Shown here piece after piece: positions 1,603 through 30,181 of a stretch of 64,000 nucleotides of DNA. Both the position numbers and the translations under genes were made by a program. This DNA comes from Planctomycetota bacterium (GTDB lineage Bacteria > Planctomycetota > B15-G4 > JADJEK01), in NCBI GenBank assembly GCA_044225365.1, contig JBGAIQ010000012.1, positions 1 to 64,000 on the forward strand, written 5' to 3'. Position 1 is the first letter of the stretch; the number at the start of each line of letters is the position of its first letter. Below the pieces are notes generated by a model. The model was given only the letters and a program-made list of their open reading frames with translations. It searched no databases and was not told the origin of the DNA.

Positions 1603-2823
1603 TCAGAGGTCGACCGTCTCGCGAGAGACCACTCGCGGAACCGTGAAGTGGAAGACGCTTCCGACGCCCATCTCGCTCTCGGCCCAGATTCGACCGCCAT
1701 GCATTTCGACCAAGTCCCGACAGATGTTCAGTCCTAGTCCGAGCCCTTCGATCGATTTCTTGTCCCGCTCGACCTGAAACAAGCGATCGAACACCGCGTC
1801 GAGATCCTTCCTGGGTATCCCGCACCCCGTATCCGCCACGGAAATGCGAATCCACGCCGCTTGCGTTTCGTCGCTCGTCGTCGAGATCGATACGGCGATC
1901 CTCCCACCAGGGGCCGTGAAGCGAATCGCGTTCCTCAACAGATTCGACAGAACCTGCTCGATGAGACTCGAGTCGATGTAAGCAAATGGACTCGTCGGAT
2001 CCGGCACTTCGGTGACTTCGACTCGAGCCCTCTTGATCGAATCGTGAAAGCGATCGAGCACCATCGACGAGAGTTCGTTGATTCGCGTTTGCTCTCGATC
2101 AGGGGTCACCTGACCGGACATGAGGCGCACGACCTTCATCATGTCGGCCACGTAACAGCCGACTCGCCGACAACTACGATGGGCAGTCTCGAGATAATCG
2201 CGCTGTTGTTCGTCGATCGACCCGTTGGGGTTCTCGAGTACGAGGGCCAAGAACTCGAGCGCCGCGCTCAATGGGGTCCGGAGCTCGTGCGAAAGCGAGT
2301 GATAGAAACTCCGGATCTCGATGTTTCTGCGGTCGAGCGCCTTATGCGCCTCCTCGAGGTCGCGTGCGTAGCGTCTCAGTTCCGTTCGCAGTCGCTGTCT
2401 CTCCATCACGCTCGAGAGGCAGCGCAAGAGGGAGTGAGGATTCAACTCCGGTCGTGGGATGCACTCGACGACGACGGTGCCGAGAGGATCGTGATCGAGT
2501 TTCGGAGATCGATCGTCAACGAGGAGGATCACGGGCGGCGGAGGATCGTTCGATTCATCCGAAACGGACCGGATGAACTCGTCCGTACTCATGTCGCGAG
2601 GGTTGGAATCAAGGACGACGCACGACACGTTCGTCGCGCGCAGGCAGTTCAACGCGGCGGCGGCTGAGTCGATCTCGCGCACTTCGGCGCGCGTTGATAG
2701 CGCCGCGACGAGGAGTTTCGAGTAGCCGTCGCGGCGATCGCGTGAGGAACTCACGAACACCACGGTATCGAGCGCAGCCGCGCACGCGGTAGTAGGGATG
2801 CTCTCCTGCAACGTCGAACTCAT
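1603..2823 (-). CDS. sensor histidine kinase with N-terminal atypical REC (REC-HisKA-HATPase)
   Basis: H-box SHELRTPL, N-box NLLRNAIRF, G1 DTGCGIP, G2 GLGLGL. The ATG at 2823 overlaps the upstream stop (ATGA); the longer ORF extension overlaps the upstream regulator. Confidence 0.92.
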   Translation of the reverse strand: MSSTLQESIPTTACAAALDTVVFVSSSRDRRDGYSKLLVAALSTRAEVREIDSAAAALNCLRATNVSCVVLDSNPRDMSTDEFIRSVSDESNDPPPPVILLVDDRSPKLDHDPLGTVVVECIPRPELNPHSLLRCLSSVMERQRLRTELRRYARDLEEAHKALDRRNIEIRSFYHSLSHELRTPLSAALEFLALVLENPNGSIDEQQRDYLETAHRSCRRVGCYVADMMKVVRLMSGQVTPDREQTRINELSSMVLDRFHDSIKRARVEVTEVPDPTSPFAYIDSSLIEQVLSNLLRNAIRFTAPGGRIAVSISTTSDETQAAWIRISVADTGCGIPRKDLDAVFDRLFQVERDKKSIEGLGLGLNICRDLVEMHGGRIWAESEMGVGSVFHFTVPRVVSRETVDL

Positions 2824-3263
2824 TCCGTGAGGACGGAATGCACGGCGGCAGCGATCTGGGCGCTGAGCGTGGGTTTGAAGAAGAGCCGTCGGATGGCGTT
2901 CCAGCCGTCGATCACGTCGAATAGCGCGACATCTCTGCTGCCGGTGATGATCACGATCGGCAGGCCATTCGTTCGCGGATCCCGACGCAGACGCATCAGC
3001 AGATCCGTTCCGTTCAACTTCGGAAGTCCCAGATCCAGAACGATCGCGCTGGGCCGATTCTCCGTCGCCGCCTTCCAACCCGCGAGGCCGTCGTACGCGC
3101 TGATCACCTCGTGGCCGTAGGCCCCGATCTTCGTCGCCAGGAGACGGTTCATGTCGTGATGATCCTCGACGACGAGGACCTGTGCACGGCAGGTGCTCAA
3201 CGCGGGGATCGCGCCATCGATGCAAGTCGGCGCCGCAGCTACTTCGTACTCGATCGTGCTCAT
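2820..3263 (-). CDS. single-domain response regulator
   Basis: VLVVEDH...IVLDLGLPKLNG...LPIVIITG...FFKP REC motifs. Confidence 0.88.
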   Translation of the reverse strand: MSTIEYEVAAAPTCIDGAIPALSTCRAQVLVVEDHHDMNRLLATKIGAYGHEVISAYDGLAGWKAATENRPSAIVLDLGLPKLNGTDLLMRLRRDPRTNGLPIVIITGSRDVALFDVIDGWNAIRRLFFKPTLSAQIAAAVHSVLTE

Positions 3264-3769
3264 CGATGTGGCTCGTAGGCGTTCCGGGCAGGAAACGCAC
3301 CGAGGCCAGATCGGCGTTGCGATGCGGTGGCTTTCGAGACTGCCCACGAAAAGCCGTCGGACTTGTTGAGCGATCGAGCGGAACCCTTGAGATCTCCGTG
3401 CCGAAATCGAGTTGCAGCGAGCAGATTTGAAACACCAGGAACACTCCGAGCACCGGCCCGATCTCGCTCGGGCTGGATACCATGCTCGCCGAGGTTTGGA
3501 TCCGATCTCCAGGGCGGAGGTCCACGAAGGACGAGAGAGCGCACGAAGCCGGCGAGAACGTGGTCGCACGCTATTGAATTCGCGAGGCCGCGAGGAGCGT
3601 CAGAGATGAGTTCGGGGTCCGCGATGAAGGAAGTGACGCAACCACCGCTGCGCTCGGACGACGGCGTGCAGGAGTTCGGCGACCGTTCGAATCGGCGGCC
3701 GTGCGGTCGAGTCGAAGTGGTGGACGTCGAATGCGGGCCGACGGAGTGCGAGCTCCAAGGTGGGTCGCG

Positions 3770-6457
3770 ATGCGACTGACGCAGAAGCTCACGACCTGGA
3801 TCGGCGCGGTCGTGCTGCTATCTTCGCTCGTGAGTGGCACGCTCGCCCAATTCCACCTCGCGCGAACCCTCGAGCCTTACGAGGCCGAACGAATCTCCTG
3901 GGAATGCCGCGACCGGGCCATGATCCTCTCACGTGTCGTCGAATCGTGCGAGGCCGACGTCCGAATCCTCGGTGCGATCCCGGCTGCACAAGGGGTACTG
4001 GACGCACTCGATTCGGGCGCTGATCCACGAGACGGAACCAAGCTAGTCGTGTGGAAGGAGCGGCTCGCGTCGATCGCGGAGGCGTTCGCCCGGGCAAATC
4101 CAACGTACTTGCAGGTCCGCCTGATCGGTGCGGCCGAAGACGGCCTCGAGCTCATACGGGTGAATCGGACGGAATCTGGGGCGGTCGAGGTCGCTCCCGA
4201 CGCCGAACTCCAGAGAAAGGGAAGTCGCCCTTACTTCGGGGCGACGATGCGACTTCCCGTCGGGAGCATCTACTGCTCTCCGATCGAATTGAACGAGGAG
4301 CATGGTCGGATCCAGGTACCCCACGTCCCGGTGATCCGAGTCGCGACTCCGGTAGCGAATGCCGCGAATCAGGTCGCGGGAATCGTGATCATCAATGTCG
4401 ACATGCGTCCCATCCTCGCGTCGATGTTGCCGGACGATCGGGCGCGAAGGGATATTCATGTATTCGACGACGACGGTCGATTCCTGGTGCACCCGGATCC
4501 GTCGCGCGAGTTCGCTCCGGAATTCGACGCCCGCGCCGAATTTCCGGAGGTAGCGAGTCACTTGAAGGACGATCGAGACTCGATCGTCCAGCTGTCGAGT
4601 TCGGATAACGCTGGCCGCAGTGCGGCGATCTCTCATGTGGACCTTCCGAACGGGATGCGGCTCACCGTCGTCGAGGTGGTCCCGGACGATGCGATCTACG
4701 CAGCGTCGCGGTCCGCACGGAACTCGTGTTGGATCAGTGCGGGCCTCGCAGGGCTCCTGGCCCTTGCAATCTCTGCCTTCCTCGCGCGTACATTGGTGCG
4801 TCCGATAGAGTCTCTCACCCGCGCCGTGGAAGCCTTTCCTGGCCCGACGCCGCTGGCCGTGACGAGCTCCGCCGCAGATGAGATCGCGGCGCTGGAGAGG
4901 GCGTTTCGCCGGATGGGAGAACGCGTCACCGAGAACGAGCGAATCGCGAGGGACGAGTTGGCCGCGCGCGCGAAGGCGGAGGCGGCCCTGGTGCAGAAGT
5001 CGGATCGCGAGCGGCTCTTGGTCGCAGCGATCGAATGTGCCAACGACGCGGTGATCCTGAAGAGTCTCGACGGAGTCGTGCTGTCGTGGAATGCCGCAGC
5101 GCAGCGCATCTACGGATACACCGCTGAGGAGATGGTGGGGAAGAAGATCCACGCAATCGTACCCCAGGAGTTGCACTCGGAGGTGGAAGAGATCCTCCGA
5201 CGGATCCGGAACGGCGAGGAGACACTCAACTTCGATACTCGAAGGATGACTCGAGCGGGGCGGGTCATCGACGTCTCCTTATCGATTTCTCCCGTACGAG
5301 CAACGTCGGGTCAACTCATCGGCGCATCGGCAATCGAGCGAGACGTGACCGATCGTGTCGCGGCCGAAGAGCGCTTCCGGGTCGCTGTCGAAGCCTGCCC
5401 CAGCGGCATGCTCATCGTCGATTCGAAGGGGTTCATTCTCCTGGCGAACGGCGAAGCGACACGTCAATTCGGTTATTCGCGGGAGGAATTGATCGGCAGT
5501 TCGATCGAGGCGCTCGTTCCCAAGCGATTCAGAGAAGATCACACTCAGTTACGAGAGACCTATAAACGATCGCCGCATCCACGGCTCATGGGATCGGGCC
5601 GCGACTTGTACGGGCTCAGGAAGAACGGCACTGAATTCCCGATCGAGGTTGGTCTGAATCCGATCGCGATTCGATCCGGACCGATGGTCATGTGTGTCGT
5701 AAGCGATATCACGCTACGCAAGCAAGCTCAAGATGCTGCGGCTCGCCACGCCGCCGAGCTGGAGCGGTCGAACAGGGAACTCGAGGAATTCGCCCATCTG
5801 GCGTCGCACGACCTCCAGGAACCACTGCGAATGGTAGGGAGTTACACGGAATTGATCGCGGCGAAGTACAAAGGGAAACTAGATCCTCAGGCGGACAAGT
5901 ATATCCAATACACCGTCGAGGGTGCGCTGAGGATGAAGACGATGATCACCGATCTGCTAGCATACTCGCGAATCTCGTCGCAACCCGGAGTGCCCAAACC
6001 GACGGATTTGAACAAAGTCATGGACGACGTCGTCGGGGAGCTGGCGGGGTCGATTCGGGAATGCGAGGCGAGCGTGACATGGAAGGGCTTGCCGATCGTC
6101 GAGATGGACCCGAGACAGGCGAAACAGCTCCTCAGAAACTTGGTCGCCAACGCTCTCAAGTTCCGGCGACCAGGAGTGAAACCGGTGATCGACGTCGCAA
6201 GTCGAGCGTCCGGGTCCGTTCGGACGCTCTCGGTCGCGGACAATGGCATCGGCATCGATCCCTCGGATAGCGGAAGGCTCTTTCAGATGTTCCAGCGACT
6301 CCACGACCGCGCCAGCTATCCTGGAAACGGTATCGGCCTCGCGATCGCAAAGAAGATCGTGGAAAATCACGGCGGGCGCATCTGGTTCGAGTCGGACCCT
6401 GGGAAAGGGACGACCTTCTTCTTCGAATTGCGACCGTTCCCTGGAGATGAGTCATGA
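3770..6457 (+). CDS. membrane sensor histidine kinase (TM-Cache-like-TM-HAMP-PAS-PAS-HisKA-HATPase), Cph1/COG4251-type kinase core
   Basis: Two hydrophobic TM segments, HAMP (RPIESLTRAV...DEIAALERAF), two PAS domains (WNAAAQRIYGY, ANGEATRQFGY), H-box ASHDLQEPLR, NLVANALKF, DNGIGI, GIGLAIAKKIVENHGG. Confidence 0.95.
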   Translation: MRLTQKLTTWIGAVVLLSSLVSGTLAQFHLARTLEPYEAERISWECRDRAMILSRVVESCEADVRILGAIPAAQGVLDALDSGADPRDGTKLVVWKERLASIAEAFARANPTYLQVRLIGAAEDGLELIRVNRTESGAVEVAPDAELQRKGSRPYFGATMRLPVGSIYCSPIELNEEHGRIQVPHVPVIRVATPVANAANQVAGIVIINVDMRPILASMLPDDRARRDIHVFDDDGRFLVHPDPSREFAPEFDARAEFPEVASHLKDDRDSIVQLSSSDNAGRSAAISHVDLPNGMRLTVVEVVPDDAIYAASRSARNSCWISAGLAGLLALAISAFLARTLVRPIESLTRAVEAFPGPTPLAVTSSAADEIAALERAFRRMGERVTENERIARDELAARAKAEAALVQKSDRERLLVAAIECANDAVILKSLDGVVLSWNAAAQRIYGYTAEEMVGKKIHAIVPQELHSEVEEILRRIRNGEETLNFDTRRMTRAGRVIDVSLSISPVRATSGQLIGASAIERDVTDRVAAEERFRVAVEACPSGMLIVDSKGFILLANGEATRQFGYSREELIGSSIEALVPKRFREDHTQLRETYKRSPHPRLMGSGRDLYGLRKNGTEFPIEVGLNPIAIRSGPMVMCVVSDITLRKQAQDAAARHAAELERSNRELEEFAHLASHDLQEPLRMVGSYTELIAAKYKGKLDPQADKYIQYTVEGALRMKTMITDLLAYSRISSQPGVPKPTDLNKVMDDVVGELAGSIRECEASVTWKGLPIVEMDPRQAKQLLRNLVANALKFRRPGVKPVIDVASRASGSVRTLSVADNGIGIDPSDSGRLFQMFQRLHDRASYPGNGIGLAIAKKIVENHGGRIWFESDPGKGTTFFFELRPFPGDES

Positions 6458-6891
6458 GCGAGATCGTCACCGTCCTCCTGGTCGAAGACAACGACGCCGA
6501 CATCGATCTGGCACGGGCCCTTCTCGAGGACAGCCGATTGCACGTGAATCTCAACGTCGTGAAGGACGGTAGAGAGGCGCTCGACTATCTCAACCGAGTC
6601 GGAAAGTACGAAAGTGCTCCACGTCCCGATCTGGTCTTGCTCGATCTCAATCTTCCCAAGCTTGACGGAAAGGGCGTCCTCGCGATCGTCAAGAAGGACC
6701 CAAGCCTCCGAATCATCCCGATCGTGGTACTCACGAGCTCGGAGGCGGAGGCCGACATACTCCGTAGCTACGATCTCGGGGCGAACTGTTACGTCGCGAA
6801 GCCCGTGGGTCTCTCTGCGTTTCAGACGATCGTGAAGTCGATCGAGGGTTTCTGGTTGACCGTGGTGAAGCTCCCGGTAGCGCGACCGTGA
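6454..6891 (+). CDS. Rcp1-like single-domain response regulator
   Basis: LLVEDN...PDLVLLDLNLPKLDG...IPIVVLTSS...YDLGANCYVAKP...SIEGFWL, the Rcp1 family signature; ATGA overlap with the kinase. Confidence 0.93.
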   Translation: MSEIVTVLLVEDNDADIDLARALLEDSRLHVNLNVVKDGREALDYLNRVGKYESAPRPDLVLLDLNLPKLDGKGVLAIVKKDPSLRIIPIVVLTSSEAEADILRSYDLGANCYVAKPVGLSAFQTIVKSIEGFWLTVVKLPVARP

Positions 6892-7180
6892 ATTCGCGGC
6901 GGTGCATGGATGAAGCGCTACGGACTCGCTTTGCGTCTCCAATCTGTACGAAGTGGCGGGGCGCACAGAACACGCGCGCACTACGTCGCAGGTCGTGATC
7001 GAGATTCGAGCGCGATGAGCCGGTGATCGCGCAGGACGAATTCGTTGCCAGGTGGTTGCGGCAAGAACTTGGATCGGGGCTACAAGTTCAACAAGGCGGT
7101 TTGGTGATCTTCGTGTAGGGTGCGCGCCCAGGCGATTCGCGCCCGGGGCTTCGAGGTGGTCGACGAGTGAGGTAGCGGAG

Positions 7181-7489
7181 ATGATCTATCGACTTCGGCT
7201 CTACGTCACGGGACGGACGGCGCAGTCGCAGCGGGCGATCGAGAACCTGCGGCGAATCTGTGAAACGGAAACCACGGAGAAGTTCGAGATCGAAGTGATC
7301 GATGTCCTCGAGCACCCTTCGCTGGCAGAGAACGAGAAGATCCTGGCGACTCCCACCCTCGTCAAACGCTTACCCGAGCCCGTGAGGAAGATCATTGGAG
7401 ATCTCAGCGATCGCGAGAAGGTCTTGCTCGGTCTCGACCTCATCCCGACGTCCTTGGCTCCTCCGAAGTCGAGAGCGACTGACGGCTGA
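7181..7489 (+). CDS. kaiB: circadian clock protein KaiB (copy 1)
   Basis: LRLYVTG...[50 protein letters not shown] matches cyanobacterial KaiB nearly residue for residue; GAGG/GGAG upstream of the ATG at 7181. Confidence 0.96.
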
Positions 7490-7843
7490 CCACTGAGGTC
7501 GCTGCACCGCAAACCCGTGCTATCGAGGTTCGATCATGACCGAACGGAATTCGGCCCACGTCATGAACGCAACGTTTGGCTCCGAGTCGGATCGCGCCTC
7601 GGGTCCCTGCGCGCGAGGACGAACCACGGTGGATCTCTCGATGCCGATGATCGAAACGTGGGATTCGAGATCGCTCGCACGCGCGTGCTCGCGCTGGGCC
7701 GGTCGTCGTGGTGAGACGAGCCTTGGCGTCAACCCCACACGCAGTGCTCGCCTGAATCGGACAGAGGCACGGCTTCGCTTACGCATCACAAGAACGACGA
7801 TCGAACGAGCGAAGGAAGCCGAGCGGCGCGGAGGGATGGCCTG

Positions 7844-8692
7844 GTGAAGAAACCGACGGATGCGCCAACACGGATCCTGTTGCTCGTGGAGGACAATCCA
7901 GCCGACGCGACGTTGGTGCGGGAATACCTCGACGACTCTGACGAGCGACGCGCTTTGCCAGGCGGCGATGCCGGCGAGTATGAAGTAATCCATGTCTCTC
8001 GTATCGCGGAAGCGGTGCGAGAACTGCGGTCTCGTCACGTCGATGTGGTCCTGCTCGATCTTCGCTTGCCCGATGGCACGGGGATCAAAACGGTCGCATC
8101 CGTAAAGGCGGCAGCGAGCGACGTTCCGATCGTCGTCATGACGGGTCTCGACGACGAATCGCTCGGCGAATCGTGCGTTTCCGCAGGGGCAGAGGACTTC
8201 ATCAGCAAATCGGAAATGCGAGCGATTCCGCTCCGGCGCGCTGTTGGCTTCGCGGTGTCCCGTCATCGGGAAGCGGAATTGCGGAACGCGAAGGCAACGG
8301 AAGAACAATTCCGATCACTCACCTCGGAAGGCGTGGGGACCAGCGTCACTGCGGCGATGACAGGCTCCGGCTCGATCAAAGAGCGGATTCCAGCGAAGTT
8401 CGCGGAACTCGTTAATACCTATTGGAGTGTACTCGAGCGGTACCTCGAGCAGTTGGGCTTGAAGAAGGAAAAGCCCCGCATCGAGATGGAAATGCTCGTG
8501 ACGATCATCGGCGAACACGGGGGCGGACCGAGGGATCTCATTGATATTCACGTCGCGGCGATCGAACGAGCAGCAAGCGTCGGAAACGGCGGAATTCACG
8601 CCCGAGCTGTCGCGACGGAGGGCCGACTCATCGCGCTGGAGATGATGGGACTCCTCGTCGATTACTATCGCGTCGGACATCGCAGGAGGTAG
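7844..8692 (+). CDS. kaiA3: REC + KaiA-like C-terminal domain protein (KaiA3-type)
   Basis: N-terminal REC intact (VEDN, LLDL, MTG, ISK). The C-terminus LVNTYWSVLERY...PRDLIDIHVAAIE...EGRLIALEMMGLLVDYYR aligns by eye with the KaiA C-domain (Y..IL..Y, ILEIH, RL.LID..AHLCEMYR). It lies between two kaiB genes, upstream of kaiC. Confidence 0.8.
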   Translation: MKKPTDAPTRILLLVEDNPADATLVREYLDDSDERRALPGGDAGEYEVIHVSRIAEAVRELRSRHVDVVLLDLRLPDGTGIKTVASVKAAASDVPIVVMTGLDDESLGESCVSAGAEDFISKSEMRAIPLRRAVGFAVSRHREAELRNAKATEEQFRSLTSEGVGTSVTAAMTGSGSIKERIPAKFAELVNTYWSVLERYLEQLGLKKEKPRIEMEMLVTIIGEHGGGPRDLIDIHVAAIERAASVGNGGIHARAVATEGRLIALEMMGLLVDYYRVGHRRR

Positions 8693-8697
8693 CCAGG

Positions 8698-8979
8698 ATG
8701 GAGAAGGCAACGCGATATCGCTTGCGACTCTATATCATCGCCGGACGGACCTATGCGAAGATCTCCGTCGAGAATCTGAAGTCCATCTGCCAAACCGTTC
8801 TTGCGGGTCGGCACGAGCTGGAGATCATCGACGTGTCCGAGAAGACCGCGCTAGCGGACGAGGATCGTGTTCTCGCGACACCCACCTTGCTTCGACTCGA
8901 GCCCAAACCCATCCGACGAATCGTAGGCGACCTGAGCGATCGAGCTCGGGTCATGCAAGCGTTGGAAATCGACCAATGA
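8698..8979 (+). CDS. kaiB: KaiB family protein (copy 2, divergent)
   Basis: YRLRLYI...LEIIDV...ADEDRVLATPTLLRLEPKPIRRIVGDLSD; AGGAGG upstream. Confidence 0.93.
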   Translation: MEKATRYRLRLYIIAGRTYAKISVENLKSICQTVLAGRHELEIIDVSEKTALADEDRVLATPTLLRLEPKPIRRIVGDLSDRARVMQALEIDQ

Positions 8980-9018
8980 GTGCGGGCACGACGAAGAGAG
9001 AGAAATAGGAGTCCTATC

Positions 9019-10575
9019 ATGGTTCAGATAGCGGAACCGTATCAGCTTCCCAAGATGATCACGGGCATCGCGGGATTCGACCAAATCTCCGAAGGCGGTC
9101 TGCCGCGAGGCAGGAGCACGCTCATCTCGGGTACCGCAGGAAGCGGAAAGACCGTATTCGGACTGCAGTTCATCGCGGTCGGCGTGCGCGAGTTCGGCGA
9201 ACCGGGCGTCGTCGTTACTTTCGAGGAGTCGCCGAGCGACCTGTTCCAGAACGTCAGAACGTTTGGCTGGGACATGGAGCGCATGACCAAGGAAGGAAAA
9301 GTCGCCCTGGTCGATGCGACACCCGACCTTCACGGAGAAACCGTCGAGACAGGATCGTTCGACCTCTCCGCGCTACTCGCCCGCATCGAGCACGCGATCC
9401 GGAACACCGGAGCGAAGCGAGTGCTCCTCGACGCCATCGGCGGCTTGTTCCCACAATTCTCGGACGGGAATGTCGTGCGTCGCGAGCTCGGCCGAATCCT
9501 CGGAGGATTGAGACGGCTCGGAGCGACGACCATCATCACGATGGAGCGCACCGACGAAGACGGCAAGATCGGCCGTTTCGGGGTCGAGGAGTTCATTGCG
9601 GACAACGTACTCGTGGTTCGAAATCGACTCGAACTCGAGAAGCGTCGCCGCACGATCGAGATTCTGAAGTTCCGCGGAACACAGCATCACAAGGGCGAAT
9701 TCCCATTCACGATCGACAAAGAATCCGCGGTCACGATCATTCCGCTGTCTTCGATCGAACTGAAGCAGAAGTCGTCTGCGGTTCGAATCTCCTCCGGCGT
9801 GCAGGAACTCGATCAGATGTGTGGCGGAGGGATGTTCCGCGATTCGATCATCCTGGTGTCCGGCGCAACTGGCACGGGCAAGACTCTGACCGTCGCCGAG
9901 TACGTGAAGGCCGCGATGCTGGCAGGAGAGCGGACTCTCCTGTTCGCTGCCGAGGAGAGTCGAGAGCAACTCACTCGCAATGCGACAGCGTGGGGCGTCG
10001 ACTTCGACCAAGCCGAGCAGGACGGACTGCTTCGGATCATCTGTCGATATCCGGAGACGATGCCGCTCGAAGATCATCTGCTCCAGATGAAGCGGGACAT
10101 GCGCGACTTCTCACCCCACCGCGTGGCCGTCGACAGTCTCTCGGCGTTCGAACGGGTATCGACAATGAAGTCGTTCCGTGAGTTCGTGATTGCACTAACG
10201 AGCGCGATCAAACACATGGAGATCACGGGGATGTTCACCAACACGACCTCGTTGTTGGTGGGAAACGAGTCCATCACGGAGACGCACATCTCCACGATCA
10301 CGGACTCGATCATTCTGCTTCGGTACGTCGAACTCCACGGGGAGATGCGTCGCGGCCTCACTGTCCTAAAGATGCGAGGCACGTGGCACGAAAAGGGAAT
10401 TCGCGAGTATACGATCGACGGGAATGGAATGCATATTCATGAGGCATTCCGTGGCGTTCACGGGATTTTGACGGGCCAGCCGACTTATTATGCGATTCAG
10501 GACGAGCGCACTCGGTTGGACGACATGTTCGGGCCGTCCAAGGCCACAGGAAAATCCGGCACCGGGGGCGGGTAA
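9019..10575 (+). CDS. kaiC: circadian clock kinase/ATPase KaiC, full-length double-domain (518 aa)
   Basis: Two Walker A motifs (GTAGSGKT, GATGTGKT), catalytic EE pairs (TFEES, AEESREQL), arginine fingers (LKFRG, LKMRG), phosphosite loop ITETHISTITDSIILLRYVE; AGGAG RBS. Confidence 0.97.
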   Translation: MVQIAEPYQLPKMITGIAGFDQISEGGLPRGRSTLISGTAGSGKTVFGLQFIAVGVREFGEPGVVVTFEESPSDLFQNVRTFGWDMERMTKEGKVALVDATPDLHGETVETGSFDLSALLARIEHAIRNTGAKRVLLDAIGGLFPQFSDGNVVRRELGRILGGLRRLGATTIITMERTDEDGKIGRFGVEEFIADNVLVVRNRLELEKRRRTIEILKFRGTQHHKGEFPFTIDKESAVTIIPLSSIELKQKSSAVRISSGVQELDQMCGGGMFRDSIILVSGATGTGKTLTVAEYVKAAMLAGERTLLFAAEESREQLTRNATAWGVDFDQAEQDGLLRIICRYPETMPLEDHLLQMKRDMRDFSPHRVAVDSLSAFERVSTMKSFREFVIALTSAIKHMEITGMFTNTTSLLVGNESITETHISTITDSIILLRYVELHGEMRRGLTVLKMRGTWHEKGIREYTIDGNGMHIHEAFRGVHGILTGQPTYYAIQDERTRLDDMFGPSKATGKSGTGGG

Positions 10576-10579
10576 TCGC

Positions 10580-12466
10580 GTGGTTCACGTCGAACGCCTG
10601 GCGCTTCGCGTTCTTCTCGTCGAGGACAGCGAATCAGACGCTGACCTCACGAAGGAGCGATTGTCCGACTCTCCGCAGTACGACCTGCGCATTCGGTGGG
10701 TCAGGACATTGAAAGAGGCCCGCGAAGCCCTCGGCAGCGGGAAGTGCGATGTCGTCTTCCTCGATCTGAATCTCCCCGATTCTCGCGGCATCGAGACACT
10801 GCGCGCTCTGAGATCCGTGCGCGACGATACCCCGATCGTCATTCTCTCGGGAATCGAGTCGGAGGAGGCGAAGAATCTCGCGTGCCGGCTCGGCGCACTC
10901 GACTATGTCGGGAAGAACGAGTCCCAATCACGACTCTTCGCGCGAGCGGTTCTGTACGCGCTCGAGCGCCATCGAGCCCAGGAACGAGAACGACAGATCG
11001 AGAAGCTCGTCTCGCAGAATCCGGATGGCGTCGTCGTGGTCGACGGCGGCGGCGCAGTTCAGTTCCTGAACGAAGCCGCCGTGGAACTCTTCGGGCGGTC
11101 TCGAGAAGAGATCATTGGCGAGCCCATCGGCTTCTCGGTTCTCGAAGGACACGCTGCCGAAATCGAGATCCTACGCGGCAAGGAGCGTCGCTTCTGTGAG
11201 ATGCGCGTCGTAGATATCGAATGGCAGGGAAGGTCGGCTCATCTCGCAACGTTGCGCGACACGACCGAGCAGCGCAGGCTCGGGGAGGCGCTGCGACAGT
11301 CACAACGGATCGAGGCAGTAGGCCGAATGGCGGGAGGTATCGCCCATGACTTCAACAACCTCCTGACGGTCATACTCGGTTATAGCGAAATGCTATTGAT
11401 GTCCTCTCCGCTCGACCCCGAGAAGAGCGGGGCGATTCTGGAGATTCAAAGGACTTCGGAACGCGCAGCGGCTCTCACTCGGCAGCTTCTGGCCTTCAGT
11501 AGGAAGTCCGTCATCACGCCGGTCCGAACGGACATCAATGGTGTGATCACGGAACTCCAGAAAATGCTGACGAGACTCATCGGCGAGGACATTCAACTCT
11601 CTCTGGCGTTGGATCCAGCGATCGCGCCCGTGCTCGTCGATCGGTCTCAATTCGAGCAGGTGGTACTGAATCTCGTCGTGAACGCGCGAGATGCGATGCC
11701 GACAGGGGGGAGTCTCAAGATCATTACGCGAAATGTCACGGTCGATGCGAGCGGGACCATGCGAAGCAGCGCGATCGCTCCGGGTAACTATGCGGTTGTC
11801 TCCGTTGCGGACGACGGATGCGGAATCGCGCCGGATGTGCTCGGGCACATCTTCGAACCGTTCTTCACGACGAAGGCGGACGGGAAGGGAACCGGCCTTG
11901 GCCTCGCAACGGTCTACGGAATCGTCACGCAGAACAACGGACACGTTCTCGTCGCGAGCGAAGTCGGGCAAGGAACGACGTTCGACGTCTTCCTTCCGGC
12001 GATCCATGCGAAGCTCTCTGCGGACGAGCCCGAGCCCACTCCGTATTCGATCCCCTGCGGAATGGAGACGATCCTTCTCGCGGAGGACGACGCGAGTGTT
12101 CGTGATCTCGCGCAGTTGATCCTGGAATCGAGCGGATATCGAGTGATCACGGCGGTGGACGGGGTCTCCGCACTTCAGATCGCAAATTCCCATCGCGGAG
12201 AGATCGAGCTTCTCATCACCGACATCGTCATGCCCAAGATGAGTGGGCCGCGTCTAGCCGAACAGATCCGAATCCGACATCCTAGGATAAAGGTGTTGTT
12301 CGTCTCCGGTTATCACGACGACGCGATCACCCGGCACGGTCTCGACGCCACCACGATGAACGTGCTTCACAAGCCGTTCACCGCAACGCTCCTGGCCCAG
12401 CATGTGAGGCAGGCTTTGGAGAGCGCCTCGACCCAACACTCGGCCTCGATCGAATTCGGCGTGTGA
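10580..12466 (+). CDS. hybrid histidine kinase REC-PAS-HisKA-HATPase-REC
   Basis: REC (LLVEDS, FLDLNLP), PAS, H-box [32 protein letters not shown]-terminal REC ([16 protein letters not shown]). GTG start 4 bp after the kaiC stop. Confidence 0.94.
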
Positions 12467-14502
12467 TGAAGATCGATCCAACGACGCGCGAGATGCGAGA
12501 CAACGGTCGGCGACTCCTCGTCGTTTCGACCACTGGGGATGCATCGGACCCGGTCATAGCGAAGGTTCTACGGAACCTCGGAGATTCGTTCGTCGTCGAT
12601 GTCGTGGCACCGAGTCGTGCCGACGACGAAGTGATTCGGCCTTCGATCGCGGACGCTGCGATCGTCTACACGCGCGAGACCGAGTCGTGCCGTAGCGTCC
12701 TCGTCAGGATCAGCCGGACCTTGCCGGGCGTTCCGATCGTTCTCATCGGGCCGGCAAAGGTGCACTCGATCGCATCGCTCGAGGCGAACGTGCACGACGC
12801 CCTCGAACTCGACGAGATCGAGAGCGTTCGAATCTCAGGAGTCGTGCTCCGTGCGATCGATCGTCACCGAGCGCTCTCGGCGATCCGAGCTCGCGAAAAA
12901 TGGCTGCACGCGATCCTCGACGACAGCAGCGACGGAGTTCTCGTAGTCGATCCGGACGGAGAAATTCTCTACGCGAATCCGGAAGCGGCGCGAATGTTCG
13001 GTCGGACCGCCCACGAGCTCGTCGGCCGCAATTTCGGAATACCGATCATCGTCGCTCGGTCGACTCCCATCGATATCGCCCTGGGTCGAAGCGCGGAACT
13101 GCGAGCGGCCGTGACGACATGGAAGGGGAAGCCGGCGATCACTGCCATCCTGAGGGATGTGACGGAACAACAACGTCTCGAGCAGGACATGCGCAGGACC
13201 AACGAAGAGTTGCTCCGCGCCAATCAGTTCCTCGAGCGTCTCGCGAGCATCGATCCGTTGACGGAGTTGCTGAATCGCCGTGGACTCGAAGCCGTCCTGA
13301 TCGAAGAACTCTCGCGCGCCAGCCGCTACGGCTCGCCGCTGTTCTCGATCCTGATCGACACCGATCGCTTCAAGGAGATCAACGACTCCTTCGGTCACGA
13401 TATCGGGGATCTCGTGCTCAAGGAGATTGCGATGCGGATTCATCGCGCGCTCCGGCCGGTGGATCGGATCGGTCGGGTGGGGGGTGACGAGTTCCTCGTG
13501 CTCCTTCCCGAGGTGCGCGCCGCCGCCGCCATGGAGATCGCGGAACGACTCCGCGTCGCCGTCGCCGCGAATCCGATGGACTTCGCTGGCATTCGGATCG
13601 GCTCGACGATCAGCCTTGCCGTCATCGAGCTCCGGAAGGGCTCGGTTACGATCGCGGATCTCCTGAACCAGTCGCATGAGGCGCTGATGGCGTCGAAAAC
13701 GGCGGGGCGAAACCGGGTGGCGGGCGGCGTCGGGCTCGAGGATGAACGCCGGCGCCTGATCGAGGATCGACGTCGAACGATCCAAGCCTCTCTATCGAAG
13801 GCCATTTCATCGGTCGCCGTTGAATCGCTCTTCGAACTTCAAAGGCGCCAGCCAATGGGCGTAGCGCTTCGAGTGGCGGGCGGCGAGAACGGATCGGGAA
13901 TGCCCACCGAGTTGCTGAAGATCTGCGAGGAGGACGGTTGCCTTGCCGAGGTGGATCTGCGTTGCCTGGAGGCATGCGTGCGTGCGCCTTTGGCTTTGAA
14001 CAATGGAGATTGGATCCACTTCGGGATCTACGCTCACACGTTGTTGAAGACGCCCGAAGACGAGTTGCTGGCACGAATCGGACTTCCGCCGGAATTACGC
14101 ATCCGATTCGAGATCAGCGATCGAGAATTCGTCCGCGACATGGAAGCGCTCCAGAAGCGAATGCGCTCGCTTCGTAGCTGCGGAATCGAGTTCGTGCTGA
14201 CCCATGTCGGTTGCGCACGATCGTCCTTGGAGTCGCTGATCCTCCTCGAGCCCGAGGTGATCCGCCTCGATTCGGCGTTTGTGCGTGGGTGCGCAGAAGA
14301 TGCCTCGAAGCGTCGTTTCCTGACGCACATGTCGCGACTTGGCCGTTCCCTGCAAACGACGCTGATGGCGGATGGAATCTCCAACCTGAACGACTTCGAT
14401 CAGGTGCTTGCTTGCGGGATCACTCACGGCCAGGGCCCATTCCTGGCGCAGGCCCGTACCGTCGACGGCGCGCTGGGGATCGACTCGACGAACCTCGTCT
14501 GA
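12463..14502 (+). CDS. diguanylate cyclase: degenerate REC-PAS-GGDEF-degenerate EAL
   Basis: DPLTELLNRR, RxxD I-site (RPVD) five residues before GGDEF. The EAL-like C-terminus lacks the EAL and DDFGTG motifs (THVGCARSSL instead). GTGA overlap with the upstream kinase. Confidence 0.92.
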   Translation: MMKIDPTTREMRDNGRRLLVVSTTGDASDPVIAKVLRNLGDSFVVDVVAPSRADDEVIRPSIADAAIVYTRETESCRSVLVRISRTLPGVPIVLIGPAKVHSIASLEANVHDALELDEIESVRISGVVLRAIDRHRALSAIRAREKWLHAILDDSSDGVLVVDPDGEILYANPEAARMFGRTAHELVGRNFGIPIIVARSTPIDIALGRSAELRAAVTTWKGKPAITAILRDVTEQQRLEQDMRRTNEELLRANQFLERLASIDPLTELLNRRGLEAVLIEELSRASRYGSPLFSILIDTDRFKEINDSFGHDIGDLVLKEIAMRIHRALRPVDRIGRVGGDEFLVLLPEVRAAAAMEIAERLRVAVAANPMDFAGIRIGSTISLAVIELRKGSVTIADLLNQSHEALMASKTAGRNRVAGGVGLEDERRRLIEDRRRTIQASLSKAISSVAVESLFELQRRQPMGVALRVAGGENGSGMPTELLKICEEDGCLAEVDLRCLEACVRAPLALNNGDWIHFGIYAHTLLKTPEDELLARIGLPPELRIRFEISDREFVRDMEALQKRMRSLRSCGIEFVLTHVGCARSSLESLILLEPEVIRLDSAFVRGCAEDASKRRFLTHMSRLGRSLQTTLMADGISNLNDFDQVLACGITHGQGPFLAQARTVDGALGIDSTNLV

Positions 14503-14690
14503 CCGCCCTCCAGGTCAGCTTTCTCCGAATCAGGGTATGCGCATCGATTCCGAACAATGCCCGTGCCGTTCGATGGACCCGCGTTGCATGACGGAAACGC
14601 AGCATCCTCTCGTATCGACTCTTGGAGCCGATTCGAGCGCAAGTTCCTCGCTCTCGGAGTTCGATCAAACCCACGAGGGCAGCAGTATCG

Positions 14691-16100
14691 ATGGGACACT
14701 CGAGTCGGCTGACGATAGGAATTGCGATTCTCGCCATGACGATCCACGCGATCGTTTCCTGGTGCTGCAGTGAACTCGTTTCCGCGGGGAACGTCGAATC
14801 GGCGGCGTCCGACCGGTCGACTCTTCCATTCGGGAATGCCTGGCTCCTTCACTCTCTGATCACGCTCCTCGTCGTGTCGATCGGCGTCCACTTCGCGCGG
14901 ACCGGGCGACCTCCGGCAGGTAGCGTTCCAGACACGGGTCGCGAGGACGACCGATTCGAACTCGGAGCACGAGAAGACGCCGAACGGGCTCCACGACGCA
15001 TTACCGCTCGATCGATCGACGCTAGCAACCCCACAACCTGTTCCTCGTCTCGCGAATGCTCGATCGCACGTTCGATCGTGGAGCAGGATCTCGACGCAAT
15101 TCTCGCCGTCGACGCGGCGGGGCGTGTGATCCACTCCAATCCGGCGGCGTCGCAGCTTCTTGGCCCTGACCTCACGGACGAACTGGGACGGTTGGCCGAA
15201 TCGTCGATTCGTGGGGCGAGCGGGGAATCGGACCGCGAAGCCATCGCTCGGGCGCTCGACGGTTACGTCGTGATGAACCGCGAAGAGAGTCGAGTCGCCG
15301 CGGATGGCCGCCGCGTCAGGACGCTCACCACGTATTCACCCGTTCGCGATGCCCACGGGGAAGTCATCGCGGCGTCGATCCGGTTGCGTGTGCGTCACGA
15401 CTCCAACGGCGAAGTCGCAGAGTACGCACACTTGATCGCTCACGATCTTCGAGCGCCGCTACGCGGGATCCGATACTACGCCGACTTCCTCGCTCAGCAA
15501 TATGCGCATCTTCTCGACGAGAAGGGGCGGTCCAGACTCGAGGCGCTTCCTCGATTGTCCGGCAAGTTGGATTCGATGCTCGAGTCGCTGCTCGAGTGTT
15601 CCCGCGTCGGTGGAACTCCAATCGATCTACGCCCCGTCGATCTCAACACGATCGTCCACGACGTCATCGATTCGCTGAGTCCGTTCCTCGAGGAGACCGG
15701 AGCCGAGGTCCGCGTCCACGAGCCGCTGCCTCGTGCGACGTGCGACGCAAAACTCGTTCGTGAGCTCGTCGCGAACTTGGTCACGAATGCCGCGAAGTAC
15801 AACGACAAGGTGAACAAGCTCATCGAGATCGGATCGATGAACAATGCGATCTACGTACGGGACAACGGCATTGGCATCGATCCCGATCATTCGGAGATGA
15901 TCTTTCAAGTATTTCGAAGACTGCACGCGGAGAGTTCGTTCGGGGGTGGAACCGGTACGGGACTCACGATCGCACGATCGATCGTTGCGCGCCATGGAGG
16001 CTGGCTGTGGGTGGAGTCCGATCCCGGCGAGGGAAGCACGTTCTTCTTCGTGCTCGACTCGAAATCGCAAGCACCCCTGAGTGTCCCGAGTTCCTCGTGA
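14691..16100 (+). CDS. membrane PAS sensor histidine kinase (Cph1-like kinase core)
   Basis: Two hydrophobic segments, PAS (SNPAASQLLG), H-box IAHDLRAPLR, NLVTNAAKY, DNGIGI, GTGLTIARSIV. The start is uncertain. Confidence 0.88.
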   Translation: MGHSSRLTIGIAILAMTIHAIVSWCCSELVSAGNVESAASDRSTLPFGNAWLLHSLITLLVVSIGVHFARTGRPPAGSVPDTGREDDRFELGAREDAERAPRRITARSIDASNPTTCSSSRECSIARSIVEQDLDAILAVDAAGRVIHSNPAASQLLGPDLTDELGRLAESSIRGASGESDREAIARALDGYVVMNREESRVAADGRRVRTLTTYSPVRDAHGEVIAASIRLRVRHDSNGEVAEYAHLIAHDLRAPLRGIRYYADFLAQQYAHLLDEKGRSRLEALPRLSGKLDSMLESLLECSRVGGTPIDLRPVDLNTIVHDVIDSLSPFLEETGAEVRVHEPLPRATCDAKLVRELVANLVTNAAKYNDKVNKLIEIGSMNNAIYVRDNGIGIDPDHSEMIFQVFRRLHAESSFGGGTGTGLTIARSIVARHGGWLWVESDPGEGSTFFFVLDSKSQAPLSVPSSS

Positions 16101-16239
16101 TGAGCGAACGACGCACGAGAATCGAATCGACGAATCGATTCGCCGAAGACCACGAGCGTGGAACCCCACGCGCGGGACCGCACCCGTCGGCGCGCGCACA
16201 AGGTGATTGGCTTCGACTGGGACCGAGGAGAGAGCGATC

Positions 16240-17427: not shown

Positions 17428-17447
17428 ACGACAAAGGGGCTTTTCCA

Positions 17448-17912: not shown

Positions 17913-17985
17913 GTCCGAGTGCTCCGACGGCGTAGTGCGAGTGCTTGGCTGACTGCGGCTGGCTCGACGACCCGCGAATTCGAAT

Positions 17986-28402: not shown

Positions 28403-28591
28403 GCCGCGCAGTCTATCGGTCGCTCATGGGTGCTGTTGTCGGCCACCCGTGGGATTTGGAGTTTCTCCTGAGACTCGCTCGTCGATGCAAGGATTCAAAG
28501 GAAGAAGGCGCCATGCGTCGATCGCTCGACCCGGCTCGATTCGCCCCCAATCCGCCCGAAGGTCGAGCGGATGCTTCCAGCGAGAGGCGTG

Positions 28592-30106: not shown

Positions 30107-30181
30107 CGTCCAATGACCGTCGCTACCACGGGCGCGCGGCTTTCATGGTAGCGACAGTCAATGGACGCGAGCGGTGATGCG

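What the first reader, a model, noticed from the sequence alone, without database searches (positions are those of the whole stretch)
7844..8692. KaiA-like effector under a phosphorylatable receiver: possible two-component entrainment of the clock
Seen: the REC keeps the acidic pocket (VEDN), phospho-Asp (LLDL), Thr (MTG) and Lys (ISK). The C-terminal LIDIHV and EGRLIALEMMGLLVDYYR mirror KaiA's ILEIHV and RLTLIDVIAHLCEMYR. Established: canonical KaiA has a pseudo-receiver without the phospho-Asp. Inference: one of the five neighbouring kinases could switch KaiA activity by phosphorylation, coupling environmental sensing to KaiC cycling.
Basis: partly seen in the sequence, partly recalled or inferred. 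Interest (0 to 1): 0.8.

Follow-up and report, generated by a model that had tools for sequence, protein, structure and literature searches.

The report
KaiA3-type clock regulator beside kaiBC

Summary
The ORF at 7844-8692 (+) is real and encodes 282 aa. It has a receiver with every phospho-acceptor residue, a long linker helix, and a C-terminal four-helix domain.

- **Fold:** the C-domain model has KaiA C-domains as the top 3 of 48,161 solved chains (Z 11.0, 10.4, 9.6).
- **Orthology:** the protein is the reciprocal best hit (32% identity, E 3e-33, full length) of the Synechocystis sp. PCC 6803 protein that fits published KaiA3 (Sll0485).
- **Context:** it heads a kaiA3-kaiB-kaiC operon.
- **Prior art:** Köbler et al. 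2024 (PMC11372060) already describe this chimera, its conserved Asp and its presence outside cyanobacteria. They also say that an unidentified histidine kinase could feed it. This scan has noted the same kind in at least 8 other genomes.

- A Cache-HAMP-PAS kinase plus a small receiver lie upstream in many non-cyanobacterial loci, and in 0 of 20 cyanobacterial ones.
- One genome fuses Cache-HAMP-PAS directly to the KaiA3-type C-domain.
- The C-domain is a C-terminal output module behind REC, PAS, GAF or MEDS sensors (1734 cluster representatives).
- This window carries an extra kaiB.

Phosphorylation and its effect on KaiC remain untested. Novelty: new member of a known kind. Interest 0.3.

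The parts
7844..8692 (+). kaiA3-like gene, 282 aa. It encodes a receiver, a long linker helix and a KaiA-fold C-domain.
   Evidence: ORF and translation. It is the full-length reciprocal best hit of the Synechocystis KaiA3 candidate P0122. AF2 model pLDDT 88.0.
7871..8212 (+). Receiver (REC) domain, residues about 10-123. D72 is the phospho-acceptor. E16/D17 form the acidic pocket. T100, F119 and K122 are also present.
   Evidence: Pfam PF00072 E 2.2e-17. E16, D17, D72 and K122 are invariant in 43 homologues. Whole-model Foldseek returns only receiver proteins.
8222..8341 (+). Long linker helix, residues 127-166. It is followed by the family-wide conserved motif TSVTA (residues 166-170).
   Evidence: DSSP of the AF2 model shows H127-166, with pLDDT under 50 at 166-169. 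T166 and A170 are invariant in 9 sequences that include cyanobacterial KaiA3.
8354..8689 (+). KaiA-like four-helix C-domain, residues 171-282.
   Evidence: Model pLDDT 88.4. KaiA chains rank 1-3 of 48,161. KaiA fills 8 of the first 11 Foldseek rows. The profile hits KaiA in register at E 0.11.
8698..8979 (+). kaiB (copy b, 93 aa). It is divergent and sits in the canonical slot between kaiA3 and kaiC.
   Evidence: Pfam KaiB 73.7 bits. NCBIfam KaiB 70.6 bits, below the 110 cut-off. AGGAGG lies before its ATG. It is 34-57% identical to other KaiBs.
9019..10575 (+). kaiC, double-domain, 518 aa from ATG 9019. It carries the HISTITDS phosphosite motif.
   Evidence: Pfam KaiC E 6.9e-115; NCBIfam KaiC 705 bits against a cut-off of 408. 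It is the only double-domain KaiC in the genome. Alignment. Start and SD.
7181..7489 (+). Extra kaiB (copy a, 102 aa from ATG 7181), upstream of kaiA3. It is flanked by spacers of 289 and 354 nt.
   Evidence: Pfam KaiB 102.9 bits. NCBIfam KaiB equivalog 113.8 against 110. It is absent between REC1 and kaiA3 in two genomes of the same family. The N-terminal extension of the mechanical ORF has GC2 0.74, unlike coding sequence.
3701..6457 (+). Sensor kinase HK1: Cache-type sensor, HAMP, two PAS, HisKA, HATPase. It is the best candidate for the input kinase.
   Evidence: Pfam. Homologues lie upstream of kaiA3-like genes in L001, L002, L149, L150, L151 and L152 among others, and in 5 of 9 plus 5 of 9 metagenome loci.
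6454..6891 (+). Single-domain receiver REC1. Its start overlaps the HK1 stop by 4 nt.
   Evidence: Pfam PF00072 E 6.3e-18. It is conserved next to HK1 in relatives. It is 32% identical to the KaiA3 receiver.
10580..12466 (+). Hybrid kinase REC-PAS-HisKA-HATPase-REC directly after kaiC. The start is approximate.
   Evidence: Pfam. Homologues lie after kaiC in L001, L002, L147, L150, L151, L153 and others. Its N-terminal receiver is 36% identical to the KaiA3 receiver.
12463..14502 (+). PAS-GGDEF-EAL protein, same strand, start overlapping the end of the hybrid kinase.
   Evidence: Pfam. The same order is seen in L153.
14622..16100 (+). PAS histidine kinase.
   Evidence: Pfam.
16207..17427 (+). 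REC-HisKA-HATPase kinase.
   Evidence: Pfam.
1603..3525 (-). Histidine kinase on the opposite strand. It is the fifth kinase of the island.
   Evidence: Pfam HisKA and HATPase_c.

Best explanation
The gene is a non-cyanobacterial orthologue of KaiA3 and the first gene of a kaiA3-kaiB-kaiC operon.

Shown here:
- A receiver with an intact phospho-acceptor site.
- A long linker helix.
- A C-terminal four-helix domain of the KaiA fold.
- Full-length homology to the experimentally studied Synechocystis KaiA3.
- The position directly before kaiB and the genome's only double-domain kaiC.

Inferred:
- Two C-domains form a KaiA-like dimer that holds the C-terminal tail of KaiC and so promotes KaiC autophosphorylation. 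KaiB opposes this.
- Phosphorylation of D72 changes receiver and linker-helix pairing. That sets whether the two C-domains are placed to act on KaiC. The receiver is therefore an input switch to a Kai timer.
- The most likely phospho-donor is the Cache-HAMP-PAS kinase at 3701-6457. It would feed its adjacent single receiver REC1 and the KaiA3 receiver in parallel.
- The hybrid kinase after kaiC is more likely an output or feedback element.
For: Identity
- BLASTP to P0122 gives 32% identity, E 3e-33, over 5-276 of 282 against 2-274 of 299.
- P0122 is named 'NarL subfamily [Synechocystis sp. PCC 6803]' by its sources. It has 299 aa and Asp65 and is followed by kaiB but not kaiC. All of this matches what the paper says of Sll0485/KaiA3.
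- Reciprocal best hits: E 2.2e-27 against the next hit at 4e-8, and E 1.8e-27 against the next at 3.3e-16.

Fold
- KaiA chains are ranks 1-3 of 48,161 and 8 of the first 11 Foldseek rows.

Receiver
- D72 and the acidic pocket are invariant in 43 homologues.
- Of the best 150 family representatives, 81 carry this type of receiver, and 70 of those 81 keep the Asp.

Context
- kaiB and kaiC follow with Shine-Dalgarno sites and gaps of 5 and 39 nt.
- No Pfam KaiA was found in the genome, which is 94% complete.

Input module
- Upstream kinases in the genome-derived non-cyanobacterial loci:
  - HK1-REC1 homologues lie directly upstream of the kaiA3-like gene in L001, L002, L149, L150, L151 and L152.
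  - REC1 is seen at the contig end in L153.
  - Other kinases lie upstream in L004, L146 and L148.
- Among metagenome loci with at least 1 kb upstream, a same-strand kinase lies within 3 kb in 5 of 9 (at least 43% identity) and 5 of 9 (33-42%).
- 0 of 20 cyanobacterial loci show HK1 or REC1 similarity in the roughly 1 kb upstream.
- One genome encodes dCache-HAMP-PAS fused to the linker and C-domain.
- 53 of the best 150 representatives are longer than 340 aa, with the C-domain last. Of these, 43 have PAS, 28 REC, 10 GAF and 3 MEDS. The N-terminal part is therefore a variable sensor.

KaiC tail
- The complex prediction used two C-domains plus the last 45 residues of KaiC. It gave weak support: score 0.51, best of 3 controls 0.02.
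- The mark was reached by 116 of 157 solved complexes and 2 of 215 mismatched pairs. At 0.60 or under, only 18 of those 157 reached it, and so did both mismatches that passed.
- The runs agree in at least 63% of contacts, and the partner's pLDDT is at least 50.
- A KaiA-KaiC peptide complex is solved (5c5e), so this pass may only reflect that likeness.
Against: - No Pfam KaiA match even at E up to 10.
- phmmer and a 6-sequence profile found no KaiA in the PDB. The 20-sequence profile reaches KaiA only at E 0.11-0.18.
- hhalign against 21 cyanobacterial KaiA C-domains gives 27.7% probability, E 6.4e-4, over 59 columns.
- Z of 10-11 lies within the range the tool says helical bundles can reach by chance. 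RsbR N-domains follow closely at Z 9.3 and 8.4.
- The KaiC tree does not resolve the window's KaiC into the cyanobacterial KaiC3 clade. The backbone is open, and only exclusion from KaiC1 (100/100) and KaiC2 is clear.
- The KaiA histidine that aligns in ...AHLCEMYR is Leu here and Tyr in cyanobacterial KaiA3. That this His matters for KaiC binding is recalled, not from a call.
- One genome (G653, 93% complete) has HK1-REC1-kaiA3-like-hybrid kinase without kaiBC in the locus. No KaiC was found there with this window's KaiC at E 1e-10. The C-domain may therefore have partners other than KaiC.
- About half of the metagenome loci have no kinase upstream.
- Microcystis-type KaiA3 lacks the Asp, so the family can work without phosphorylation.
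- No experiment on this protein exists.
Confidence: 0.7

Rival explanations
1. The protein is an output or adaptor response regulator of the Kai system, not an activator. The hybrid kinase after kaiC, controlled by KaiC/KaiB, phosphorylates its receiver. The helical C-domain docks it to KaiC or to the kinase.
For: - A hybrid kinase directly after kaiC is as widely conserved as the upstream kinase.
- Its N-terminal receiver is the closest paralogue of the KaiA3 receiver in the island, at 36% identity.
- In L151 the kaiA3-like gene is followed directly by the hybrid kinase, with no kaiBC.
Against: - The Synechocystis orthologue raises KaiC3 phosphorylation in vitro with no kinase present (PMC11372060, passages).
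- The gene keeps the kaiA slot before kaiB-kaiC.
- Sensor domains (PAS, GAF, MEDS, Cache-HAMP-PAS) replace the receiver in relatives. That fits an input domain, not an output domain.
Confidence: 0.12
2. The receiver is not used for phosphotransfer from island kinases. Either it acts as a constitutive dimerisation or ligand-sensing module, as the pseudo-receiver of canonical KaiA does, or it is charged by small phospho-donors such as acetyl phosphate.
For: - Canonical KaiA uses a pseudo-receiver without the Asp (PMC11372060 introduction).
- Microcystis-type KaiA3 has Ser at the site.
- 8 of the 81 receiver-bearing representatives have another residue at the site, and 3 show a gap.
- 4 of 9 plus 4 of 9 metagenome loci have no kinase within 3 kb upstream.
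Against: - The full set of catalytic residues is invariant in 43 homologues of the window's clade. That argues for selection on phosphorylation chemistry.
- HK1-REC1 is recurrent upstream.
Confidence: 0.13
3. The C-domain is a generic helical protein-binding module related to RsbR/RsbU N-domains. The protein has no KaiA-like action on KaiC, and its place next to kaiBC reflects only shared regulation.
For: - RsbR N-domains score Z 9.3 and 8.4, close to KaiA.
- Sequence links to KaiA are sub-significant.
- The G653 case has no KaiC found.
Against: - All three KaiA representatives rank above every other chain.
- The protein is a full-length homologue of a protein shown to drive KaiC3 phosphorylation.
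- kaiB follows the gene in 20 of 20 cyanobacterial loci, and kaiB-kaiC follows it in most other loci.
Confidence: 0.05

Closest known systems
KaiA3 (Sll0485) of Synechocystis sp. PCC 6803 and its listed orthologues (Köbler et al. 2024, Nat Commun 15:7674, PMC11372060; Rru_A3293 of Rhodospirillum rubrum in PMC10931921)
   Same: - Same architecture: a receiver with the phospho-Asp, a linker and a KaiA-like C-domain.
- Full-length homology and reciprocal best hit.
- The gene lies directly upstream of kaiB(-kaiC).
- The partner KaiC is closest to the paralogue that carries S423/T424, as published for KaiC3: 59-61% identity against 53-54% for KaiC1 and 37-39% for KaiC2.
   Different: - Only 32% identical.
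- It belongs to a separate non-cyanobacterial clade with an ...ALEMMGLLVDYYRVGxRR end.
- A Cache-HAMP-PAS kinase and a single receiver lie upstream. This was not seen in 0 of 20 cyanobacterial loci.
- A hybrid kinase and a GGDEF-EAL protein lie downstream.
- A second kaiB lies upstream.
- The genome has no KaiA1B1C1 system.
- Function is untested here.
Canonical KaiA (Pfam PF07688; structures 1r8j, 1q6a, 1r5q, 5c5e)
   Same: The C-terminal four-helix fold, and the EIH... and RL...L...YR motifs in register. The domain order is also the same: a receiver-like N-domain, a linker and the C-domain.
   Different: - No Pfam match.
- 10-16% identity in the structural alignments.
- The N-domain is a true receiver with the Asp, not a pseudo-receiver.
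Response regulators with a helical stalk after the receiver (dual sensor kinase 6oap, DgcR 6zxb, WspR-like 3bre, LvrB 8vc9)
   Same: These are the best whole-model structural matches: a receiver followed by a long alpha-5 stalk. In these proteins phosphorylation is known to act through receiver and stalk dimer geometry (general knowledge, not from a call).
   Different: Their outputs are kinase or cyclase domains. Here the output is a KaiA-fold protein-binding domain.
N-terminal domains of RsbR/RsbU (stressosome; 3zta, 2bnl)
   Same: A similar helical fold, Z 9.3 and 8.4. The paper also notes the KaiA-RsbU likeness.
   Different: They rank below all three KaiA representatives. There is no sequence link, and the genomic context is different.

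Membership tests
KaiA3 family (Köbler et al. 2024) | N-terminal response-regulator receiver with the phospho-acceptor Asp | tested here: met
   Pfam PF00072 E 2.2e-17. D72 aligns with D65 of P0122. It is invariant in 43 homologues.
KaiA3 family (Köbler et al. 2024) | C-terminal domain of the KaiA four-helix fold | tested here: met
   Model pLDDT 88.4. KaiA ranks 1-3 of 48,161 with Z 11.0, 10.4 and 9.6. Foldseek best hit 1q6a, probability 0.99.
KaiA3 family (Köbler et al. 2024) | Full-length sequence homology and reciprocal best hit to Sll0485 | tested here: met
   E 3e-33, 32% identity. Reciprocal best hits. P0122 is tied to Sll0485 by source name, 299 aa, D65 and kaiB downstream. The accession itself is not in the paper's main text.
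KaiA3 family (Köbler et al. 2024) | Gene directly upstream of kaiB, usually followed by kaiC | tested here: met
   kaiB at 8698-8979 and kaiC at 9019-10575.
KaiA3 family (Köbler et al. 2024) | Partner KaiC of the KaiC3 type | tested here: inconclusive
   Identity is 59-61% to the S423/T424 paralogue, against 53-54% (KaiC1) and 37-39% (KaiC2) in 5 genomes. The tree excludes it from KaiC1 and KaiC2 but leaves the backbone open.
KaiA3 family (Köbler et al. 2024) | Binds KaiC and stimulates its autophosphorylation; opposed by KaiB | not testable with these tools
   Only a weak-support complex prediction exists (score 0.51, best control 0.02). No biochemistry.
Canonical KaiA (Pfam PF07688) | Match to the KaiA family profile | tested here: not met
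   No hit at E up to 10 for the protein or its C-half. None in the genome at E up to 1.
Canonical KaiA (Pfam PF07688) | N-terminal pseudo-receiver lacking the phospho-Asp | tested here: not met
   D72 and all catalytic residues are present.
Two-component response regulators | Acidic pocket, phospho-Asp, Thr/Ser, aromatic switch residue and Lys | tested here: met
   E16/D17, D72, T100, F119 and K122.
Two-component response regulators | Phosphotransfer from a cognate histidine kinase | not testable with these tools
   Only synteny with HK1-REC1 and one sensor fusion.

The most novel reading that the evidence does not exclude
In non-cyanobacteria the KaiA3-type regulator is the end point of a dedicated two-component input. 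The Cache-HAMP-PAS kinase at 3701-6457 senses an external or periplasmic chemical cue. It phosphorylates D72 of the KaiA3-like protein, with REC1 as a parallel acceptor or sink. Phosphorylation then gates KaiC autophosphorylation. The Kai timer of this bacterium would thus be set by a chemical signal rather than by light or redox. The extra conservative KaiB and the divergent operon KaiB would give two different off-switches. This would supply the cognate input kinase that the KaiA3 literature says is still missing.
Probability: 0.3. Interest if true: 0.6.

Novelty: new member of a known kind. Interest (0 to 1): 0.3.

Why it matters
KaiA3-KaiB3-KaiC3 is the only KaiA-containing oscillator type known outside the standard cyanobacterial clock. 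Its input is unknown: the 2024 paper says the cognate kinase has not been identified.

Loci like this one place a candidate kinase and a small receiver next to kaiA3. The direct Cache-HAMP-PAS fusion, and the many PAS or GAF fusions to the same C-domain, show that the N-terminal half is a swappable sensor.

That makes a clean biochemical test possible in a small set of proteins: kinase to D72, then the effect on KaiC phosphorylation. As a finding it is ordinary, a further member of a published family that this scan has already met in at least 8 other genomes.

Tried and rejected
- **Whole-model fold search.** It gave only receiver proteins, so the C-domain was folded alone.
- **Sequence searches for KaiA.** None reached significance:
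  - Pfam found nothing at E up to 10.
  - phmmer against the PDB found no KaiA.
  - The full-length profile returned only receivers.
  - The 6-sequence C-domain profile found no KaiA.
  - hhalign gave 27.7% probability.
- **Genome-contig scan with the full-length alignment.** The receiver pattern swamped it. Only 3 of 79 loci (L001, L002, L004) were full-length relatives.
- **103-aa ORF at 7536-7847, which overlaps the gene's start.** I rejected it as a gene for these reasons:
  - It has no Pfam or NCBIfam hit.
  - It shows no similarity to the ORFs at the same place in L001 or L002.
  - It is absent in two genomes of the same family.
  - Its GC2 is 0.66 against 0.35-0.47 in the neighbouring genes.
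- **145-aa 'long KaiB'.** It is an artefact of the mechanical start. The likely start is ATG 7181.
- **Search for longer fused forms with the window's own C-domain.** It found none. The profile search then found many.
- **KaiC tree.** It did not settle KaiC3 membership.
- **Promoter, terminator and Rfam scans around the gene.** They gave nothing above background.
- **Earlier notes of this scan near this place.** There were none.
Full report
**1. The observation**

The frame 7844-8692 (+) is open for 282 codons from a GTG. A GGAGG lies about 9 nt upstream of it. Pfam finds a receiver at residues 13-123 with E 2.2e-17, and nothing else, even at E up to 10.

In 43 full-length homologues E16, D17, D72 and K122 are invariant, and T100 is kept in at least 90%. 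The C-terminal strings LIDIHV and EGRLIALEMMGLLVDYYR are present too. A profile of 20 C-domains aligns them in register with VLEIHV and RLTLIDVIAHLCEMYR of solved KaiA C-domains. That match is only at E 0.11-0.18.

**2. Fold**

The full-length AlphaFold2 model has pLDDT 88.0 and pTM 0.65. It shows a receiver, one long helix (127-166) and four further helices (183-206, 212-224, 229-246, 250-281).

Searching with the whole model returned only receiver proteins. Several of them have a helical stalk after the receiver: 6oap, 3bre, 6zxb, 8vc9.

The C-domain was then folded alone, giving pLDDT 88.4 and pTM 0.82.
- Foldseek gave KaiA entries in 8 of the first 11 listed rows. The best was 1q6a: E 0.086, probability 0.99, TM 0.61/0.63.
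- A search of all 48,161 representative chains, independent of Foldseek, put the three KaiA representatives first: 1r5q Z 11.0 (rmsd 2.8, 90 aligned), 5c5e Z 10.4, 5jwr_E Z 9.6. RsbR N-domains came next at 9.3 and 8.4.
- The tool warns that helical bundles can reach such Z values by chance. The fold match therefore counts together with the homology below, not alone.

**3. What it is**

The protein has 377 homologues at E up to 1e-3 in the near-length search. The listed ones are full-length, about 270-320 aa, and named only 'response regulator'.

A profile of the C-domain found strong matches in 29 of 401 sampled cyanobacterial genomes. The 20 fetched loci align to residues 12-276 of the window's protein at 28-33% identity.

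One of these proteins, P0122, is letter for letter the protein that sources name 'NarL subfamily [Synechocystis sp. PCC 6803]'.
- It has 299 residues and an Asp at position 65.
- It is followed by kaiB but not by kaiC.
- All of this matches what Köbler et al. 2024 report for Sll0485 = KaiA3 (PMC11372060; passages read). The accession itself is not in the paper's main text.
- BLASTP of the window's protein against P0122 gives 32% identity and E 3e-33 over nearly the full length.
- Each is the other's best hit in the other genome, far ahead of plain receivers.
- A Microcystis-type group has Ser at the phospho-site, as the paper states.

The window's protein is therefore a KaiA3 orthologue of a separate, non-cyanobacterial clade.

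**4. Context**

Downstream genes on the same strand:
- kaiB (8698-8979), 5 nt after the stop, with AGGAGG before its ATG.
- kaiC (ATG 9019, with AGGAG before it).
- A REC-PAS-kinase-REC hybrid kinase.
- A PAS-GGDEF-EAL protein.
- Two more kinases.

Upstream genes:
- A Cache-HAMP-PAS-PAS kinase (3701-6457).
- A single receiver that overlaps the kinase stop (6454-6891).
- A second kaiB.
- A fifth kinase, on the other strand.

The genome is 94% complete. It holds one double-domain KaiC, these two KaiBs and no Pfam KaiA.

The KaiC carries the HISTITDS phosphosite motif. In 5 cyanobacterial genomes it is 59-61% identical to the paralogue with S423/T424, the published KaiC3 sites. It is 53-54% identical to the KaiA-adjacent KaiC1 and 37-39% identical to the long KaiC2. 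A maximum-likelihood tree excludes it from KaiC1 (100/100) and KaiC2 but leaves the backbone open. KaiC3 membership is therefore likely, not proven.

**5. The kinase question**

I used tblastn with the window's own proteins on fetched loci.

*Genome-derived loci.*
- The order kinase (HK1-like), receiver (REC1-like), kaiA3-like, kaiB, kaiC, hybrid kinase recurs in L001 (Vicinamibacterales), L002 (Jiella endophytica), L149, L150 and L152.
- L153 shows the same order, cut at REC1 by the contig end.
- L146, L148 and L004 (Roseiflexus) have other kinases upstream.
- L151 has HK1-REC1-kaiA3-like-hybrid kinase without kaiBC.

*Cyanobacterial loci.* 0 of 20 show HK1 or REC1 similarity in the roughly 1 kb upstream. 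20 of 20 have kaiB downstream.

*Metagenome loci (80 fetched), counting those that have the receiver part and at least 1 kb of upstream sequence.* A same-strand kinase lies within 3 kb upstream in:
- 5 of 9 loci at 43% identity or more,
- 5 of 9 loci at 33-42%,
- 0 of 18 loci at 32% or less.

Several of these loci are near-duplicates of one another, so the counts are not independent.

*A direct fusion.* One genome (L147) encodes a 647-aa protein with dCache, HAMP and PAS fused directly to the linker helix and C-domain.
- It aligns to residues 140-276 of the window's protein at E 2e-10.
- It aligns to the HAMP-PAS part of HK1 at E 1e-11.

*The wider family.* A profile search of 1.84 billion cluster representatives finds 1734 proteins at E up to 1e-3 and 1435 at E up to 1e-10.
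- The domain lies at or near the C-terminal end in nearly all of the listed 150.
- 53 of those 150 are longer than 340 aa. They carry PAS (43), REC (28), GAF (10), MEDS (3) or MASE3 (1).
- 81 of the 150 have a KaiA3-type receiver, and 70 of those 81 keep the Asp.

The N-terminal half is thus a variable input module.

The hybrid kinase after kaiC is equally conserved. Its N-terminal receiver is the closest paralogue of the KaiA3 receiver, at 36% identity. Synteny alone cannot exclude it.

**6. Mechanism**

Shown: the architecture, the fold, the orthology and the operon position.

Taken from the literature on the orthologue: KaiA3 binds KaiC3 and raises its phosphorylation, KaiB3 opposes it, and the three proteins oscillate in vitro (PMC11372060, passages).

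Inferred here: a KaiA-like C-domain dimer holds the KaiC tail, and phosphorylation of D72 acts through the receiver and stalk-helix dimer geometry.

A complex prediction was run with two C-domains and the last 45 residues of KaiC.
- It gave weak support: score 0.51, best of 3 controls 0.02.
- The mark was reached by 116 of 157 solved complexes and 2 of 215 mismatches.
- At 0.60 or under it was reached by only 18 of those 157, and by both mismatches that passed.
- Runs agree in at least 63% of contacts, and the partner's pLDDT is at least 50.
- A KaiA-KaiC peptide complex is solved (5c5e), so this may only restate the likeness.

**7. Against, and open**

- Sequence links to canonical KaiA are sub-significant.
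- G653 (93% complete) has a kaiA3-like gene, but no KaiC was found there with this query.
- About half of the non-cyanobacterial-type metagenome loci lack an upstream kinase.
- Some family members lack the Asp.
- Nothing has been tested on this protein.

**8. Novelty**

The chimera, its conserved Asp, kaiA3B3C3 synteny outside cyanobacteria and the possible kinase input are all in print (PMC11372060). [quoted passage not shown] PMC10931921 (passages) names Rru_A3293 of R. rubrum as such an orthologue.

Full-text searches for 'KaiA3' found 18 papers (17 listed). By their titles and abstract starts, none is about KaiA3 outside cyanobacteria; besides the 2024 paper I opened only PMC10931921.

Earlier notes of this scan describe the same kind in at least 8 other genomes. 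One of them has the same kinase-receiver-kaiA3-kaiB-kaiC order.

It is a new member of a known kind, interest 0.3.

Noticed in passing
window 7181-7489 (+) and 8698-8979 (+): The window holds two kaiB genes for one kaiC.
- The upstream copy is conservative: 53-81% identical to the KaiBs of the other loci examined (47-50% to those of two same-family genomes and to a second copy in L147), and above the NCBIfam KaiB cut-off.
- The copy in the operon slot is divergent: 34-57% identical to other KaiBs, and below the cut-off.
- The two copies are 45% identical to each other.
- Two genomes of the same family have only the divergent type and no insert between REC1 and kaiA3.
   Followed up: partly
window 6892-7180 and 7490-7843: Two spacers of 289 and 354 nt flank the extra kaiB. 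The mechanical ORFs over them (the N-terminal extension of the 145-aa 'KaiB', and a 103-aa ORF overlapping the kaiA3 start) have GC2 of 0.74 and 0.66, unlike real genes here. No Rfam family, promoter or terminator pattern was found in them.
   Followed up: partly
L147:9196-11139 (-): A 647-aa protein with dCache, HAMP and PAS fused to a KaiA3-type linker and C-domain. A kaiB lies upstream, and kaiB-kaiC-hybrid kinase lie downstream. It is a one-component version of the kinase-plus-KaiA3 pair.
   Followed up: yes
L151 (G653), kaiA3-like at about 9277-10005 (-): The gene order is HK1-REC1-kaiA3-like-hybrid kinase, with no kaiB or kaiC in the locus. No KaiC was found in that genome (93% complete) with this window's KaiC at E 1e-10. 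This is a possible Kai-independent use of the C-domain.
   Followed up: partly
window residues 166-170 of the protein (8339-8353): The motif TSVTA lies between the linker helix and the C-domain. It is conserved from this clade to cyanobacterial KaiA3 (T166 and A170 invariant in 9 sequences), but it is the least confident part of the model (pLDDT under 50). It might be a partner-binding strand, as the KaiA linker is for KaiB. The KaiA comparison is recalled, not tested.
   Followed up: no
window residues 33-42 of the protein (about 7940-7969): A roughly 10-residue insert (DERRALPGGD) in the loop after helix 1 of the receiver. It is absent from the 42 other homologues aligned and from the two same-family genomes. 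The model is less confident there.
   Followed up: no
window 2000-18000: The kai and kinase island has slightly lower G+C (0.594-0.622 in 2-kb bins) and lower GC3 (0.67-0.79) than most of the rest of the window (about 0.62-0.67 G+C; GC3 mostly 0.72-0.91). The C-domain occurs in only 3 of 41 genomes of the same order and 10 of 401 of the phylum. Both fit a patchy, possibly transferred island.
   Followed up: partly
window 17986-19206 (-) and 19047-20561 (-): A type III polyketide synthase (chalcone/stilbene synthase family) and an FAD-dependent monooxygenase-like gene lie next to the island. Further on there are four large FG-GAP repeat proteins (28571-31687 and 53893-59038).
   Followed up: no
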